Positions 1-33,900 of a DNA stretch of 64,000 bases are shown here, in pieces. The DNA is from Girardia tigrina (taxonomy: Eukaryota): positions 1 to 64,000 of the forward strand of contig MQRK01231528.1 in the NCBI GenBank assembly GCA_001938485.1. The letters run 5' to 3'. Position numbers: made by a program. Every line of letters starts with the position of its first letter. Positions within the stretch are counted from its first letter, which is position 1.

Positions 1-3000
1 GGGGGGGGGTGTAGGCAGAATGCCCATTTTTACCCTACTTGTTTTTAAACCCACATTGATGTTGTTAATATTAATCGACTATAAAGATAAGATTATATGT
101 GATAAATATACAATAAATATACAATAAATATACAATACCAAAAATAAATATATCTTGAAACATAGACACAAGCAGGAAGAGCAATTTTACGTAGTAAGTG
201 TTATATCAATTTTATTCTTAATTGCATTTCTAACACAGAAACAATTACTTATTACAAATGCAAGTTAATAAAGTAAAAAATTACGTTATGGTTATTAACC
301 ATTAAAAAAATCAAAATCAAAAACATAAAAAATAAAAAAATAAAAAATATAATAATAATAATAATAAATCCAAGCAGTACAAAGAGTAGAAACAAAGAGA
401 CGTGCTGGACCTTTGAATTTGAACATGGAACATGATATGCCAGTGTCCTCCGGTGTAACTGATGAGGATTGTCCATATTTTTTATTATCCATAGTGTGGT
501 GCTGAGTTTTCGACTGGATAATGTAATCGATATGGGTGTGTTTTATTGTCCATTTCTCCTTCCCACTAAGTGCGTGTATGTAGCCAAAAGTCTTCAGAAT
601 CATGGAGCAAAGGAACATGACCAGTCATTTCTCAGTAGAAGCCAAAGCTCGTACATTGAAAGCTCTTTAAGCCGAAGCTGTGTGATAGGATCAGAAAATA
701 ATGTTTTTATCAAATCGTTTCTACCTCACAAAGAGTCTATGATTCACTACCCTATGCACCAATCGTGAGTAGTTTTGTAATACACAGTAACCCGTCACAG
801 TCTAGGGAGGCTTATATATCTGTATTAATACATCCAGTTAATAAAGACGACATTTTCCAGTTTTATTTTACGTATTTTTTGAGAGTATTTGCATGTTTTG
901 GGGTTCTTTTATTCATTGATAGCCAATTTAGGAAAAAATACAACTTTTACATAAAGAAATATTTTGATTATCCTTTAGATATGGACATTTAATTATATTA
1001 TCCTTTTCATATGTAGCGCAGCACAAAATCCTTATTTCACTTTGTAAAGTGTATAAAGAATAAGATTTATTATTTTTTATTGCCTTTCTTCTACATTAAA
1101 ATAGAAAGCGTATGAAAAAAGTGTTTCATTAATTTGGACAAAAATTTGTTTTCAAAATTTCTTTTTAAATATTAATATATGGCCCATATATAAATGACGT
1201 CACTGGTCGCTTTGCAATTCTATTTAACACTTTATTTGAACCCAATAAATTAATTAAAATAAATTAAATAGATAAAAGTAATTAAAATAAAAGCAAAAAA
1301 TTAAATAAATTAAATTAAATGTAAACATTAAAAATAATTAAATTAAATATATATAAGTATATATATAAATTTATATGTGAGATCATTACGTTCATATGGT
1401 GTTGTTATGATTGCCGCTTTAATTAATTATGAGTCGATTTTGTTTCGATTTCAGCTCGCTCAGTGATACTCAATTCCAGTTCCATCGAAAATAATTTTTT
1501 TAACAAAAATTCGCAAATTTTCTGCTAATTCGAATTAGCTAATTTTATAATTTATAACTTGATAGATTTAAACAAAGATTCCTTTGTTTAATTTACAATT
1601 TGCTTTATTTGTAATTCGTGTTCATTTTGAACACGTGAATTTGAATTGACCAATTGGGTCATGTATTGTGAATGTAATGCGTATTTTGTAAGTCAATTGA
1701 ATGAGTGAATATTGATTCTAATTGGATTGTCATGGGTATGTGTGTTGTGTGAGAGTTTTTTTGATCAATTTGGTTTTACAATTTTGGTTTTTGTGCAAAA
1801 AAATAATTGTCACAATTCGTAAAAAATAAATTTGTTTAAATGAGTCAATGGCAATAAATAAAGTTTTTGAAAAAATTAAATTCTCCTTTAATATATGAAA
1901 ATATTGCTGATCAAAAATGATGAAAATTAGCGAAGCAATGTTTAAAAAATAAAAAAAAATTACGTCATTTTGCTGATTGCTCAATTTAATTAAAAAAAAT
2001 TCATTTGAAAGAATTAATGCTGTTGAAAGAAGTAATGTTTTGGTCGTTGGAGCAGGCGGTAACGGATATGATTTGCTAAAGAATCTCGTAATGTGGTGGT
2101 TCAAAGGCATCACTGTGTTCGATTTAGACACAGTCGATGTGAGTGATTTAAACAGACAGTTTTTGTTTCGCAAAGAGCGTGTAGGCAAATCTAAAGCTTT
2201 GACCGTAAAAAAGTGTCTTAAAGTTTAATCCCGATGTAAATATCGAGGCGAAACACGACGACTTTAACTCGAATATTCCGAGTATTCAAACGAGACTCAT
2301 TACAAGCGCAATTCAGTAACGATAACGACTTCATAAATCGACCGATTAAAATAAAAAATATTATTAATTTTAAAAGTGACGATAATAAAAATAATAATTC
2401 TAGTAAACCGAGAGATAATAAAAGATCATTTCAGCCTGTTTCTAATGATAACTCACACAATCAGGCTCAAAAAGTCATAGATTTCAGCAACAAAATCGAT
2501 ATGGGCGTACGAATATTCAGTTTGAAATTGAGTAGAGCTCATCAAGTTTCGATTTTGTTAAATAGAAAAGTCAATGGAATTATTTTTGAGGTAGTCGGCC
2601 AAATCGAGAATATCGAAAGAAAGTCTCCAACGGGAATCGTACATTTCGATATTAAAGAGGGCCATTTTGTTCAGAAATCGAATTTCTGCAATATGGACGA
2701 GATCGATGCCGATTTGAATGCGAATGTTTATTTATTTATTTATCGATTTATCGAACTGTTAAATTCGGCCGTGAAATTGTTTCAATGTTTAAAGATTTCG
2801 ATAATCACCGATAAATCAATCAATATTTGGTCGATGAAATATACGTCAAACAATGCTTCAAAGAATCAGATGGAATTGTCTTGCAGAACGTTAAACAACT
2901 CATCAATACCTCAATTTAGTCATGGGATCAGTTATCTTTCTATTACTTCAGACAGTCAATTATGGGTGATCGATTCCCTGGACAAGAAGGTTCGCACTTA

Positions 3001-3383
3001 TCTACAGACTGACCTGATACAGCGAGTGTTAGATCTCCACGGTCACACGGAACCCGTGATCGCTATCTCAATTCGATACGACAACGAACTTCATATGTCC
3101 TTTCTCATGAGCGATACGTCATTGAAGCCACTGATCAAGTCGCTAACCGTTCCCGTTCACGGCAAGTATTCAGTCTCGAACATTTTGCAGTCTCAACTTG
3201 GAAAAGTAAAAGAAGCACTCGAATATCATTTCCCGTCGATTCCGATTGAACCTCTCGAGTTGAAAGTTGGTAAAGAAACCAAAAAACCCTCCGCTGAGAT
3301 ACAACAGTCACAAAAAAACGAGTTTTTATAATAATAATAATCGTAATCATAATAATAATAATAATAATCGCAATCATAATAAA

Positions 3384-30900: not shown

Positions 30901-33900
30901 TATTCGGACATAGACGACATTATCGAACCGTCGATACACGTTTATAAATTCAAAGAGAACAAGACTCTCAATGCATTGAGAAATCGACTGCTGTATTAGA
31001 GTCGTAATCGAGGAATGTTGGAAAACGATTTGTTGTTGACCATGTTGAAATAGAGAGAAATGTTTCCATATTGATTTACCAATTGTCTATTTGCAGAGTA
31101 TTTTAATAATGATTTTTTTCTAAGTTCCTTCAAAATTTGAATTAATCAATAGAATTAGATCTTTAGTATTACCTTTTTTACATTAACGCGGATTTTCCTT
31201 TTTGATATTTGACATATTGATTATAACTTGTATTGGAGTTTTAACTTCCGTTTCAACTAAATTTTGCTTTCGCATATCTCACCAGATGAAAAATGCCTGA
31301 AAATCAAAAGAACTTTAAGGCGCTCATAAAGTTTTCTTCTAAGAACTCTAAACGTTTTCCTCATTTAAATAACATTATGACTAGAACATTATGATCAGAA
31401 CATTAAATGACATTATGATCAGAAAATACATTATTTTTATCCTTAAAATAGATATTTTTACTTATTGCTTTTCTTATTTATAAATATTTATTCATGGATG
31501 TTTTCATTAATCCATTTATTCGTATCTATGTTGATTCCGTTTGTCTCAGTTTTGCCTTGGGAGTTGAGCAAAACAAATTCTTCTTGGAAAAAATAAAATT
31601 CCGCATGCAGAAAATTTAATAAAATAATGATAAAAAATCAATATTAATATTCGAATCAATATTGATAATAATCCATGAAATAAAGTTATTTTAATTTTGA
31701 ATGTCAAACCTTTTGTTTAAATAATTGGGTAAAATGGGATTGATAATTGGCGCGGATTTTGGAAATATGGAATTTTCTTCGAAATCAGGCGAGTATTAAT
31801 TTTTCTTTTAAATAAAGAAATTTTTAATGAAAGAAAATGTGATTGAGGATTGTTATTATTTTTTAAATAATGAATGTTGGAATGTTTTGATTGAATTTTT
31901 ACGAATAAATTATCGAACTCGAAAGAGCCAAAATATATTCTCCGGAGCGGCAGCTAAATGAAAGCTTTCAGAATAGATCGATGAATGAATTGTCGAAATA
32001 GAATGAGACAAAAAAATTCCTGGGCGGAGGCTAAATGAAAGCCTTTGGGAAAAAAATAAAAAAAGAAATATGAAATATAAATAATGAATTATGTTTATTT
32101 TAAAGTAAAGTAAATATATGACTTTGAAACTTGAAAAAGATGGAAATGATAAAATCAGATTACTACAGGTTCGTTAAACTATATTATAAACCTCCCACTA
32201 TAGATAGTAAACTACGATACTTAGCATTGACGCACAGTGCTGTGAATCTTAGATTCTATATCGGGAGGAAACTATAAAAAACAAGAGCTTCTGTCAATAT
32301 CACACGGCTTTAGATTCATGAGTACGATCCTTCATTGCACAAGCATGTTTCGGTTTGCTTCCAAGAAATGATCAATTTGGATACCCTGTATAAGAGCAGT
32401 TTGTGCAACAGGGAAAGTGACAATTAAATGTCTCTATTTTATAATATTCAGCCAAAAAACCGAAACAAACTTTGAATTTAAATTATCTATATGTATTTTG
32501 TTTTAACAGTTTAGTGCAATTTTACGGTATTAGTAGTAATTTTATCCTTTTTTAGATAATCAAGTAACTTACGCCTTCGTGTATCCCATTCTTTTATACA
32601 AATTGACCGTAGTATAAATCAAAGTTTATGTGGTTTAAGGGTGCACAATCACCTCTAAATACATGGCTACCCAAATCTTTAATGGATATCAGACTATTCG
32701 GTTATATATGTTTGACCCGTATTTTACTGTCTTTCCTTCTGATGCCCAGAATCACAATACATTTCGAAATGCTCTCCTTGATTGTTTTTTCATTTTGCCA
32801 TCTCAACCAGCTTTATTGAAAAATTCAAATTTTGAGTCAAACACCAGAAATTGTTTCATTCCAATCTAGTTTAAAACATTCCTTCAAATATGACTCAGAT
32901 TAACAAAAAACACAGAATTTAATATATGGAAAGTTTCAGTCGATCGTGGTGATCTCCACGGTTTTTCACTGAAAATCGATGACAATTTGATTGTAGTCTT
33001 TAAAAAAGGATGTAATTACAATTTCCTTGTTGATAAATTTGCTTAACTGGAGTTGCTGATCAGAATTATTCAGCAACGGAAACAGCTTTATTAGATAAAT
33101 GGAATTTAAAACAATAATCAGTAAACTAAGATTGAATAAAACATCTTAATAACAAGTTTATTAATTAATAAATATTTTCAAATTTATTTAACCAGAGCGC
33201 TAATTAAACCATTTTGTGAAAATCGGATGGAAATAGAGGCTGAAATCAATATTCGCCAAAAAGATGTATTTCCAGACACTGGATCGAATTTCAGACAGGA
33301 ATAAAATTTATTTAAAATTCAGAGACAAACACAAACAGTAAACACTGAAAATGAGGTTGAAAAAAATTTAGATTGAACAAGCAAAATTTTGCAATAGGGA
33401 AATAAATCAAAAATAAACAATGTACCCAAAGTACGTATAGATTCGTGGATTTAGTCAGACTACCAGATTCAAGATACTTAAAAGTCTTGGGAGTTAGTAA
33501 GAGGATTGTAGAATCATGATGAGGGATGAAAGTCATTTTGTGCCGGAAATGGAAGTGTTTGATATTGTTGTATATTTTTGGAGATGTTTTGAGTATTAAT
33601 TTTCTGTTTTAAATTGATACATAAATATTTGATAAAAGTACAAATTAAAATACAAAGCTGGTAAAAAAATCGTTTAAATCTTCAAGAAAGAATATAACGT
33701 TATTTTTATCTAATTATGATTACAAATTCATTCAGTAAAAAGCATTTTATTAAAACATTACTGTAAAAACATTTTATTACATATTATTGTAAAAAACACG
33801 TTATTTGAAAAATTTTTATGATCTTGTTTTATTAAATGCAAGTAGTTAGAATTGTTTTACTGTATAAATAACGAACGCAATTTTGGAAAATTGAGAATAG

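What the first reader, a model, noticed from the sequence alone, without database searches (positions are those of the whole stretch)
1900..31371. Window-wide pattern: chimeric cassettes of decayed housekeeping-gene fragments, mostly 5' ends
Seen: fragments of at least seven unrelated, normally single-copy genes within 30 kb. These are UBA2 (5'), WDR3 (internal), SBDS (5'), MDN1 (AAA1), SPEN (5'), a scribble-type LAP (5') and SDHAF2 (near 5'). All are truncated and disabled, and several are joined end to end. Processed pseudogenes are usually 3'-biased with poly(A), unlike these. Inference: systematic DNA-level capture near promoters of active genes. Three of the seven are ribosome-biogenesis factors, which may be chance.
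[Added by the scan's program, not by the reader: the finding's places include an assembly gap (unread letters, written N; its length is only estimated) at 8343 to 8427, 16504 to 16532, 17146 to 17245, 26551 to 26600. Whether the letters on both sides are continuous or in frame is not known: test that first.]
Basis: partly seen in the sequence, partly recalled or inferred. Interest (0 to 1): 0.75.

Follow-up and report, generated by a model that had tools for sequence, protein, structure and literature searches.

The report
Copied gene pieces in transposon-rich DNA
A transposon-filled, AT-rich stretch of an invertebrate-like genome holds three small blocks of copied pieces of housekeeping genes, a known kind of genomic debris, although one block still carries a long open reading frame.

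Summary
Tools support six of the seven claimed pieces at domain level. Four can be named: UBA2 (N-terminal), a WDR3-like piece (internal), SBDS (residues 2-199 of 248) and midasin AAA1. "SPEN" is only half an RRM, and "scribble-type LAP" is only a run of leucine-rich repeats. SDHAF2 got no tool support.

The pieces form three blocks within the first 31 kb. I found none in 33-64 kb.

"All disabled" is wrong. The WDR3-like piece lies in a 363-codon stop-free frame (P about 4e-12 by composition).

The SBDS piece looks like one whole exon with intron edges. It is 88% identical to a full-length relative and has changed faster, so it is a DNA-level partial copy.

The midasin and RRM pieces sit between two assembly gaps, inside the pol region of a dead Ty3/gypsy-like element. 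The midasin piece is a strong GC outlier, so its placement or origin is uncertain.

I found no Helitron ends, terminal inverted repeats, target-site duplication or poly(A) tail.

Best reading: ordinary DNA-level partial gene duplicates collected in insertion-tolerant, transposon-rich DNA. A dedicated promoter-proximal capture system is not shown. Parent loci and copy number could not be tested.

The parts
1977..2225 (+). UBA2-like piece: N-terminal part of the ThiF/adenylation domain, 83 stop-free codons
   Evidence: Pfam ThiF E 7.5e-21, 74.8 bits, cut-off 28.1. Human UBA2 residues 12-78, E 1.6e-18. A by-eye continuation in another frame (2209-2316) got 0 solved-structure hits at E<=10.
2240..3328 (+). 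363-codon stop-free frame, a mosaic that holds the WDR3-like piece; first ATG at 2501
   Evidence: 0 stops in this frame against 20-27 in each of the other five; P(open) about 4e-12 by composition. Second-longest open frame in the window. Only 8 relatives at E<=1e-3 among 1.84 billion representatives; residues 1-150 and 290-363 have none. AlphaFold2 single sequence gave mean pLDDT 34, which is uninformative.
2693..2827 (+). Block shared with P0001, probably UBA2-derived, inside the 363-codon frame
   Evidence: 67% identical over 45 residues to the start of P0001. P0001 residues 43-141 match human UBA2 residues 403-502, E 8e-4, with a weak UAE_UbL hit, E 0.0088. A second block near the frame's end is 41% identical to P0001 residues 168-201.
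2810..3088 (+). WDR3-like internal piece (about two WD blades) inside the 363-codon frame
   Evidence: Pfam Beta-prop_WDR3_2nd E 1.9e-9, 37.6 bits, below the cut-off of 140. Utp12 residues 528-623, E 0.0026. P0002 42% identical over 92 residues. P0002's own best Pfam family is the WDR3 second propeller, 6e-36.
3332..3420 (.). (AAT)n-type microsatellite directly after the stop of the 363-codon frame
   Evidence: A fraction is 0.58 in the first 100 nt, with no A-run of 6 or more.
4290..4460 (+). Copy of a dispersed repeat of about 170 nt, ending about 80 nt upstream of the SBDS piece
   Evidence: Other copies lie at about 10624-10799 (+, 71%) and 6500-6629 (-, 68%).
4537..5123 (+). SBDS piece: residues 2-199 of 248, exon-like, one frameshift, no stop; the last 49 residues are absent from the window
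   Evidence: Pfam SBDS_N 3.9e-15 and SBDS_domain_II 3.3e-11. Human SBDS E 1.8e-22. P0009 88% and 87% identical in two frames. Acceptor-like and donor-like letters sit at the two ends of homology. It changes faster than P0009: 14 against 3, p 0.013.
14669..18928 (-). Broken pol region of a Ty3/gypsy-like retroelement (the virus-like stretch): protease, RT, RNase H, integrase zinc finger, integrase core, SH3-like tail, in that order
   Evidence: Pfam RVT_1 5e-28, RT_RNaseH_2 1e-31, Integrase_H2C2 1.4e-8, SH3_Tf2-1 9.5e-5, weak aspartyl protease. Each stop-free piece was searched on its own. The frames of the eight pieces show at least 5 frame changes, at least 1 in-frame stop and 1 nested insertion. 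No LTR pair and no gag hit.
16699..17145 (-). Midasin (MDN1) AAA1 piece, 149 stop-free codons, running into the 100-N gap
   Evidence: Pfam AAA_5 7e-11. Midasin chains 4e-46 overall; best stretch 3e-12 at residues 296-402 of full-length yeast Rea1. GC 0.61 and GC3 0.70, against 0.30-0.46 for all other coding pieces.
16534..16695 (-).
   Evidence: RRM_1 E 1.1e-6, profile positions 1-45 of 70. Best solved relative is CELF1, E 1.9e-4; SPEN chain 4p6q is ninth, E 0.041. GC3 0.41.
13463..13963 (-). Second, separate integrase-core fragment of a retroelement
   Evidence: Pfam rve 1.5e-11.
12634..13301 (-). Mariner-type transposase fragment
   Evidence: HTH_48 6.7e-16; Transposase_1 2e-4.
20662..21740 (+). 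Mariner-type transposase remnant in several frames
   Evidence: HTH_48 1.3e-8; Transposase_1 1.6e-10.
29391..29657 (-). By eye, decayed repeats with stops and frame changes continue upstream to about 29886.
   Evidence: LRR_8 1.4e-6, 28.4 bits, cut-off 27. SHOC2 3e-24 and LRRD1 are best among solved structures. LAP identity is not shown.
30937..31053 (+).
   Evidence: Seen only by eye in the translation. No Pfam hit. The search tool does not take a translation with a stop. The resemblance rests on a recalled motif only.

Best explanation
This is a transposon-dense, AT-rich, gene-poor stretch that has collected at least three separate small blocks of partial copies of host genes.

The three blocks:
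- Block A (about 1977-5123, + strand) is a rearranged UBA2-derived copy with a WDR3-like piece embedded in it. After an AT-rich spacer and a dispersed repeat comes a single-exon copy of SBDS.
- Block B (- strand) is a midasin AAA1 piece fused to half an RRM. It is nested, in sense orientation, in the pol region of a dead Ty3/gypsy-like element.
- Block C is an LRR piece and a tiny possible SDHAF2 piece on opposite strands.

Most likely mechanism (inferred): short stretches of genomic DNA were copied and inserted ectopically. This could happen as filler or templated insertion at repaired breaks, or with help from transposons. The insertions persist in a region where they do no harm. The copies then decay or, rarely, stay open.

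What is shown: the pieces, their truncation, the end-to-end joins, the exon-edged SBDS copy and its faster change, and the absence of carrier signatures.

What is inferred: the mode of insertion, and that the parent genes lie elsewhere.

I do not think one dedicated promoter-proximal capture system is needed to explain this.
For: Pieces and their positions in the parent proteins.

SBDS copy:
- It is contiguous over 198 codons.
- Its homology ends at acceptor-like and donor-like letters.
- It has one frameshift.
- Residues 200-248 were not found anywhere in the window.
- Of 23 differences from P0009, the outgroup P0010 sides with P0009 14 times, with the window 3 times and with neither 6 times (p 0.013).

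Context: mariner, Tc1-like, Ty3/gypsy-like and GIY-YIG (Penelope-type) remnants surround the blocks. The only intact-looking host gene is at 45839-48247.

No carrier signature:
- No terminal inverted repeats or LTRs.
- Helitron-end scan: 0 sites on + and 1 on -, far from the blocks.
- No Rep/helicase domain in any of the 575 ORFs scanned.
- No poly(A).
- No block is repeated within the window.
Against: - The 363-codon open frame, and its two blocks shared with P0001 from another contig, suggest more than passive debris. This could be a maintained chimeric gene or a mobile carrier with variable cargo.
- With outgroup P0011 the SBDS rate asymmetry is weak (5 against 3, 13 neither).
- Block B's sense orientation inside a retroelement fits RNA-level capture as well.
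- The midasin piece's GC3 of 0.70 and its position between two gaps fit misplacement or foreign DNA.
- The splice-like edges of SBDS were read by eye, without the parent locus.
- Three ribosome-biogenesis genes among so few pieces hints at an expression-linked bias that a passive model does not predict.
- Parent loci, linkage and copy number were not testable here.
Confidence: 0.5

Rival explanations
1. Cargo of a gene-capturing DNA transposon (Helitron-like or Pack-type). It picks up 5'-proximal gene parts one after another and builds chimeras.
For: Bat Helitrons carry an excess of promoters, 5' UTRs, first exons and first introns, and capture sequentially to make chimeras (Thomas et al. 2014, PMC4224331, passages read). 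Within block A all pieces share one strand. The SBDS copy is DNA-level. The 363-codon frame shares both flanks with P0001 but differs in the middle, like a carrier with variable cargo. A dispersed repeat abuts the SBDS piece.
Against: No Rep/helicase or other transposase linked to the blocks was found in the 575 ORFs scanned. No hairpin-plus-CTRR end lies near any block (only perfect stems were sought). No terminal inverted repeats. The dispersed repeat does not flank the other blocks. Block C has opposite strands.
Confidence: 0.15
2. RNA-level capture. Reverse transcriptase of the Ty3/gypsy-like element switched templates to host mRNAs packed in the same particle. This placed midasin and RRM coding pieces inside pol. 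Block A might be a chimeric retrocopy whose tail decayed into the (AAT)n run.
For: Block B lies inside pol, in the same orientation as pol. It consists of coding sequence only, and its two pieces are fused directly. Such 'abnormal template switching' between unrelated RNAs in one particle is described for LTR retrotransposons (PMC13317346, passages read). No intron is visible inside any piece. An A-rich microsatellite follows the 363-codon frame.
Against: The SBDS piece keeps intron-like edges. No poly(A) was found. The element has no LTRs and I saw no second copy carrying the same cargo. About 380 nt of AT-rich non-coding DNA is also part of the nested block. The island is held in place only by scaffolding across two gaps.
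Confidence: 0.2
3. Assembly or contamination artefact. The 613-nt midasin/RRM island is a misplaced or foreign small contig, and other lesions are draft errors in real genes.
For: There are nine gaps in 64 kb. The island lies between two gaps, one a 100-N gap. The island has GC 0.52 against a 0.28 background, and the midasin piece has GC3 0.70. A 99.6% palindrome surrounds another gap.
Against: A GC-rich run of about 100 nt is contiguous with retroelement letters on the far side of the 29-N gap. Inside the island, composition switches sharply between the midasin piece (GC3 0.70) and the RRM piece (0.41). A midasin-RRM fusion is not a normal gene of any organism. Block A lies in one gap-free contig. 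The SBDS frameshift is not a single-base slip by eye, and the copy shows faster change.
Confidence: 0.1
4. The 363-codon frame is a working, lineage-specific chimeric gene, with P0001 a relative. The other pieces are unrelated debris.
For: P(open) is about 4e-12, and the other five frames are full of stops. P0001 is an open 236-residue relative sharing two blocks. GC3 is like that of the host gene.
Against: There is no confident fold (pLDDT 34). No relatives exist for 60% of its length among 1.84 billion representatives. Two WD blades cannot form a propeller on their own (established knowledge). No expression data are available.
Confidence: 0.2

Closest known systems
Helitron gene capture in vespertilionid bats (Thomas et al. 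2014, PMC4224331; passages read)
   Same: DNA-level copies of gene parts, an excess of 5'-proximal parts, and several unlinked genes stitched into chimeras that can stay open.
   Different: No Rep/helicase and no Helitron ends near the blocks. No evidence of amplification. The 5' excess here rests on 3 of 4 measurable pieces.
Pack-type TIR transposons (Pack-MULE, Pack-CACTA) of plants. PMC13317346 read in passages; PMC1947982 seen in search listing only. The 5' and GC preference of Pack-MULEs is recalled, not read here.
   Same: Chimeric arrays of gene fragments; some are transcribed as new open frames.
   Different: The defining terminal inverted repeats and target-site duplications were sought and not found. 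This window is animal-like, not plant.
Cellular sequence uptake by LTR retrotransposons through abnormal template switching (PMC13317346, passages read)
   Same: Host coding pieces inside the internal region of an LTR-type element, in sense orientation.
   Different: The element here is dead and lacks LTRs. The cargo also includes AT-rich non-coding DNA. The island is bounded by assembly gaps. Only block B fits this model.
Mosaic gene-fragment content of B chromosomes and other repeat-rich, low-recombination regions (PMC5704207, start of abstract in the search listing)
   Same: Many truncated copies of unlinked standard genes mixed with transposons.
   Different: The chromosomal identity of this window is unknown. 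One intact-looking gene lies 15 kb away.

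Membership tests
Helitron with captured host fragments | Rep/helicase ORF in an autonomous copy | tested here: not met
   No Helitron_like_N or PIF1-type hit in any of 575 ORFs scanned. 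A non-autonomous copy would lack it anyway.
Helitron with captured host fragments | 3' end with a GC-rich hairpin followed by CTRR, inserted before T | tested here: not met
   My own scan with perfect stems of 6-10 bp gave 0 sites on + and 1 on - (42855-42840), 11 kb from the nearest block. Imperfect stems were not sought.
Helitron with captured host fragments | Many copies with shared ends; empty sites | not testable with these tools
   Only this window is held.
Pack-type TIR transposon | Terminal inverted repeats flanking the cargo, with a target-site duplication | tested here: not met
   Only low-complexity inverted matches in 1-8342 and 27000-33000.
Processed (LINE-mediated) retrocopy | Poly(A) tail at the 3' end | tested here: not met
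   No A-run of 6 or more within 100 nt after any of 5 piece ends. There is only an (AAT)n run after the 363-codon frame.
Processed (LINE-mediated) retrocopy | Introns removed | tested here: inconclusive
   No intron is seen inside any piece. However, SBDS homology stops at splice-like letters on both sides. Parent gene structures are unknown.
LTR-retrotransposon cargo acquired by template switching | Host sequence inside the internal region, same strand as the element | tested here: met
   The midasin and RRM pieces lie on the minus strand between the RT and RNase H matches of the minus-strand pol. Placement of the island itself rests on scaffolding.
LTR-retrotransposon cargo acquired by template switching | The same cargo present in further copies of the element family | not testable with these tools
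   No genome is held.
Ty3/gypsy-like (Metaviridae-type) retroelement, for the virus-like stretch | pol order protease - RT - RNase H - integrase | tested here: met
   Order of Pfam matches on the minus strand.
Ty3/gypsy-like (Metaviridae-type) retroelement, for the virus-like stretch | Long terminal repeats and gag | tested here: not met
   No direct repeat of 30 nt or more beyond low-complexity sequence in 11000-22500. No gag family hit.
DNA-level partial gene duplicate | The copy retains intron or flanking DNA of the parent and a fuller copy exists elsewhere | tested here: inconclusive
   SBDS has splice-like edges. A full-length relative, P0009 (248 aa, 88%), exists in a public record of unknown species.
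   CELF1 is best (1.9e-4); SPEN is ninth (0.041). No solved SPEN RRM1 chain came up, so this is a weak test.
   SHOC2 and LRRD1 are best among solved chains. No LAP LRR chain came up.
SDHAF2 (Sdh5) | Match to the Sdh5 domain | tested here: not met
   0 families for 30706-30996 at E<=1 and for all ORFs there. The piece is split by a stop into parts too short to search.

The most novel reading that the evidence does not exclude
An animal lineage has a capture process without Helitron or TIR signatures. It stitches short, mostly 5'-proximal exons of highly expressed housekeeping genes, ribosome-biogenesis genes among them, into chimeric reading frames. Some of these frames stay open and spread. 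The 363-codon frame and its relative P0001 share both flanks but carry a different middle, as a carrier with exchangeable cargo would.
Probability: 0.12. Interest if true: 0.7.

Novelty: new member of a known kind. Interest (0 to 1): 0.35.

Why it matters
If these are ordinary partial duplicates, the main value is practical. Such blocks create false gene models. They also inflate counts of UBA2, SBDS or midasin "paralogues". The GC-rich midasin island could be mistaken for horizontal transfer or, conversely, hide a contaminant.

The 363-codon mosaic frame is a concrete candidate for studying how a new coding sequence arises from shuffled gene pieces. Expression and population data would settle whether it is maintained.

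If a carrier with exchangeable cargo were shown, it would extend exon shuffling by mobile DNA, well documented in plants and bats, to another animal lineage.

Tried and rejected
- **Helitron ends.** My own scan found nothing near the blocks.
- **Terminal inverted repeats and LTRs.** Only low-complexity matches.
- **Target-site duplication around the nested block.** The two edge windows share only a 7-nt word, which 237 of 2000 shuffles also reach. Rejected.
- **Poly(A) tails.** None.
- **Copies of the blocks inside the window.** None. A 61% match between the 5' flanks of the UBA2 and LRR pieces is AT-rich and weak, so I did not rely on it.
- **Midasin parent search.** The 'longer' option covers only 262-2000 residues, so midasin could not appear. 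That search was wasted.
- **Atlas look-alikes for taxon.** Rotifera or Arthropoda for the LRR-Ig gene. Nothing useful for the midasin piece.
- **First 189 residues of the 363-codon frame against solved structures.** BUB1B and RAG2 came up at E 0.4-1.7. I rejected these as chance, because the search of 1.84 billion representatives found nothing there.
- **AlphaFold2 on the 363-codon frame.** pLDDT 34. No fold search was made because the model is meaningless.
- **Rfam and tRNA scans.** 0 hits.
- **Variant genetic code as a reason for in-frame stops.** Rejected, because the 803-codon host gene has none.
- **SDHAF2.** It could not be searched.
- **Bacterial/archaeal genome scan.** Left unused because it cannot hold the parent genes.

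Full report
**What the window is.** It is 64 kb at 28% G+C with CpG observed/expected of 1.15 and nine assembly gaps. Transposon remnants fill much of it:
- mariner-type pieces at 12634-13301, 20662-21740 and 24291-24497;
- Tc1-like pieces at 55268-56062 and 63458-63916;
- a GIY-YIG (Penelope-type) tail at 8701-8895;
- a Ty3/gypsy-like pol at 14669-18928;
- a separate integrase fragment at 13463-13963.

One intact-looking host gene, an 803-codon LRR plus immunoglobulin frame, lies at 45839-48247. Its nearest Atlas clusters are rotifer and arthropod proteins.

I do not take the window for human. It is AT-rich with no CpG depletion, it has an invertebrate-type transposon set, and human SBDS and UBA2 chains align only as distant relatives.

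Every stop-free piece was searched on its own.

**Gaps first.** Four gaps lie inside the finding.
- Gap 8343-8427 touches no gene piece.
- Gap 26551-26600 is the centre of a 99.6% palindrome and touches no gene piece.
- Gaps 16504-16532 and 17146-17245 enclose a 613-nt island with the midasin and RRM pieces.

The midasin frame is open up to the edge of the 100-N gap, so its 5' extent is unknown. The RRM match ends at profile position 45 of 70, just before the 29-N gap. The far side of that gap shows no RRM match. Neither continuity nor frame across these gaps can be shown.

The island's place therefore rests on scaffolding. One point speaks for a real insertion. A GC-rich run of about 100 nt beyond the 29-N gap is contiguous with retroelement letters. 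About 380 nt of AT-rich non-retroelement DNA beyond the 100-N gap is contiguous with the RT side.

**How the pieces were found.** I scanned stop-to-stop frames against Pfam:

| ORFs scanned | Region and size | Rows dropped |
|---|---|---|
| 100 of 104 | below 33 kb, 60+ residues | 4 dropped for N; 3 trimmed at N |
| 70 of 70 | above 33 kb, 60+ residues | none |
| 119 of 119 | 21.7-33 kb, 33-59 residues | none |
| 150 of 160 | 1-21.8 kb, 36-59 residues | the first 10, all before 1662 |
| 136 of 183 | above 33 kb, 40-59 residues | 14 inside the LRR-Ig gene; 33 beyond 57783 |

Host-gene hits occur only in the first 31 kb.

**The individual pieces.**
- *UBA2:* 1977-2225, ThiF E 7.5e-21, human UBA2 residues 12-78, 40 of 68 identical.
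- *WDR3-like:* 2810-3088. Pfam WDR3 second propeller 1.9e-9, below its cut-off. Utp12 residues 528-623 at E 0.0026. 42% identical to P0002, whose own best family is the same propeller.
- *SBDS:* 4537-5123, residues 2-199 of the 248-residue P0009, 88% and 87% identical in two frames. It has one frameshift and no stop. The last 49 residues are found nowhere in the window.
- *Midasin:* 16699-17145, best stretch 3e-12 on AAA1, residues 296-402 of 4910.
- *RRM:* 16534-16695, RRM_1 1.1e-6. The best solved relative is CELF1, and SPEN ranks ninth at E 0.041. 'SPEN' is therefore not established.
- *LRR:* 29391-29657, LRR_8 1.4e-6. SHOC2 and LRRD1 are best. 'Scribble-type LAP' is not established. By eye, decayed repeats with several stops and frame changes run upstream to an ATG near 29886.
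- *SDHAF2:* no tool support. About 30 residues with one in-frame stop at 30937-31053 resemble, from recall only, the start of that family's domain. The tool does not accept a translation with a stop, and I did not go round that.

**Where the description fails.** The WDR3-like piece is not disabled. Frame 2240-3328 has no stop in 363 codons. The other five frames of the same stretch have 20-27 stops each, and composition alone gives P about 4e-12. It is the second-longest open frame in the window.

The frame is a mosaic:
- Residues 152-197 are 67% identical to the start of P0001, a 236-residue protein from another public contig. P0001 residues 43-141 match UBA2 residues 403-502.
- Residues 191-282 are WDR3-like.
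- Residues 319-357 match P0001 again at 41%.
- Residues 1-150 have no relative among 1.84 billion representatives.

So block A is better described as a rearranged UBA2-derived copy (N-terminal, middle and tail parts in order on one strand) with a WDR3 piece in place of the ubiquitin-fold region. It is not simply a UBA2 5' end joined to WDR3. AlphaFold2 without an alignment gave pLDDT 34, which says nothing either way.

**DNA or RNA?** Only SBDS gives a handle. Its homology begins right after 'ttacag' and ends right before 'gtaaga' (bounds). The piece looks like one whole exon with intron edges, which means a copy of genomic DNA. This was read by eye without the parent locus.

The copy has changed faster than P0009. 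Of 23 differences, outgroup P0010 sides with P0009 14 times, with the window 3 times and with neither 6 times (p 0.013). With the more distant P0011 the count is 5 against 3, with 13 neither.

About 80 nt upstream of the exon lies a dispersed repeat with two more copies in the window. No promoter-sized parental flank is evident.

No piece is followed by a poly(A) run. Only an (AAT)n microsatellite follows the 363-codon frame.

**Block B.** The midasin and RRM pieces are in one frame with a single stop between them. They are on the same strand as the pol they interrupt.

The pol region is dead. Its eight stop-free pieces imply at least five frame changes, at least one in-frame stop and one nested insertion. 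I found no LTR and no gag.

The midasin piece has GC3 of 0.70. The stub beyond the gap has 0.65, the RRM piece 0.41, and all other coding pieces, host gene included, 0.30-0.46. The midasin piece thus comes from a different compositional setting. That could be a GC-rich part of this genome, another genome, or a contaminant; I could not tell which.

The sharp switch inside the island, and the unnatural midasin-RRM fusion, argue against a plain contaminant contig.

A 7-nt word shared by the two edges of the nested block is not significant (237 of 2000 shuffles).

**Carrier signatures.** None was found:
- no terminal inverted repeats;
- no Helitron-type end near a block;
- no Rep/helicase domain;
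- no copy of any block elsewhere in the window.

**Interpretation.** The best-supported reading is that these are DNA-level partial gene duplicates and one rearranged chimera. They collected in transposon-rich DNA where insertions are tolerated.

RNA-level capture by retroelement template switching is a live alternative for block B. The mechanism is described for LTR retrotransposons (PMC13317346, passages read).

Helitron-type capture matches the 5' excess and chimerism reported in bats (PMC4224331, passages read), but it fails the signature tests here.

The 5' bias rests on 3 of 4 measurable pieces. The excess of ribosome-biogenesis genes (WDR3-like, SBDS, midasin) is suggestive but was noticed after the fact.

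Parent loci, linkage, copy number and small-RNA coverage could not be examined.

Noticed in passing
45839-48247 (+): An 803-codon stop-free frame with LRR and immunoglobulin domains. It is the only intact-looking host gene in the window. Its nearest Atlas clusters are rotifer and arthropod LRR-Ig proteins.
   Followed up: partly
26129-26941, around gap 26551-26600: A near-perfect palindrome (238 nt at 99.6%, plus a further 90 nt at 98.9%) centred on an assembly gap. It is either a foldback repeat or an assembly artefact.
   Followed up: no
55005-56530: A Tc1-like element with inverted ends (55047-55202 against 56459-56304, 95.5%) and DDE_3 pieces in several frames. It is interrupted by gap 56063-56084.
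   Followed up: partly
4290-4460; 10624-10799; 6500-6629 (-): A dispersed repeat of about 170 nt in three copies (68-71% alike), one of them next to the SBDS piece. It has no Rfam or tRNA match, and its family is unknown.
   Followed up: partly
5124-5165 (+): Directly after the SBDS piece, the donor-like word and its neighbours occur three times in tandem, in units of about 14 nt.
   Followed up: no
30142-30899 (-): Two overlapping open frames (128 and 155 codons; P(open) 5e-6 and 8e-7), lysine-rich, with no Pfam hit. They lie between the LRR piece and the possible SDHAF2 piece.
   Followed up: no
42827-42855 (-): The only site in the window that fits a Helitron-like 3' end (6-bp GC-rich hairpin, then CTAGT). 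The adjacent 42758-42833 is 69% like 4175-4248, upstream of the SBDS block.
   Followed up: no
37176-37918 and 57366-57642: Two stretches 88-90% alike (123 and 168 nt); an unclassified repeat.
   Followed up: no
8713-8781 and 22336-22404; 19344-19874 (-): A second short copy (87%) of the GIY-YIG tail region. Also a 177-codon open frame without a Pfam hit, which by eye resembles the N-terminal part of Penelope-type reverse transcriptases (a recalled likeness, not tested).
   Followed up: no
2240-2806 (+): The first 189 residues of the 363-codon frame give weak, non-significant matches to the BUB1B kinase region (E 0.43) and to the first blade of RAG2 (E 0.8). I treated these as chance.
   Followed up: partly
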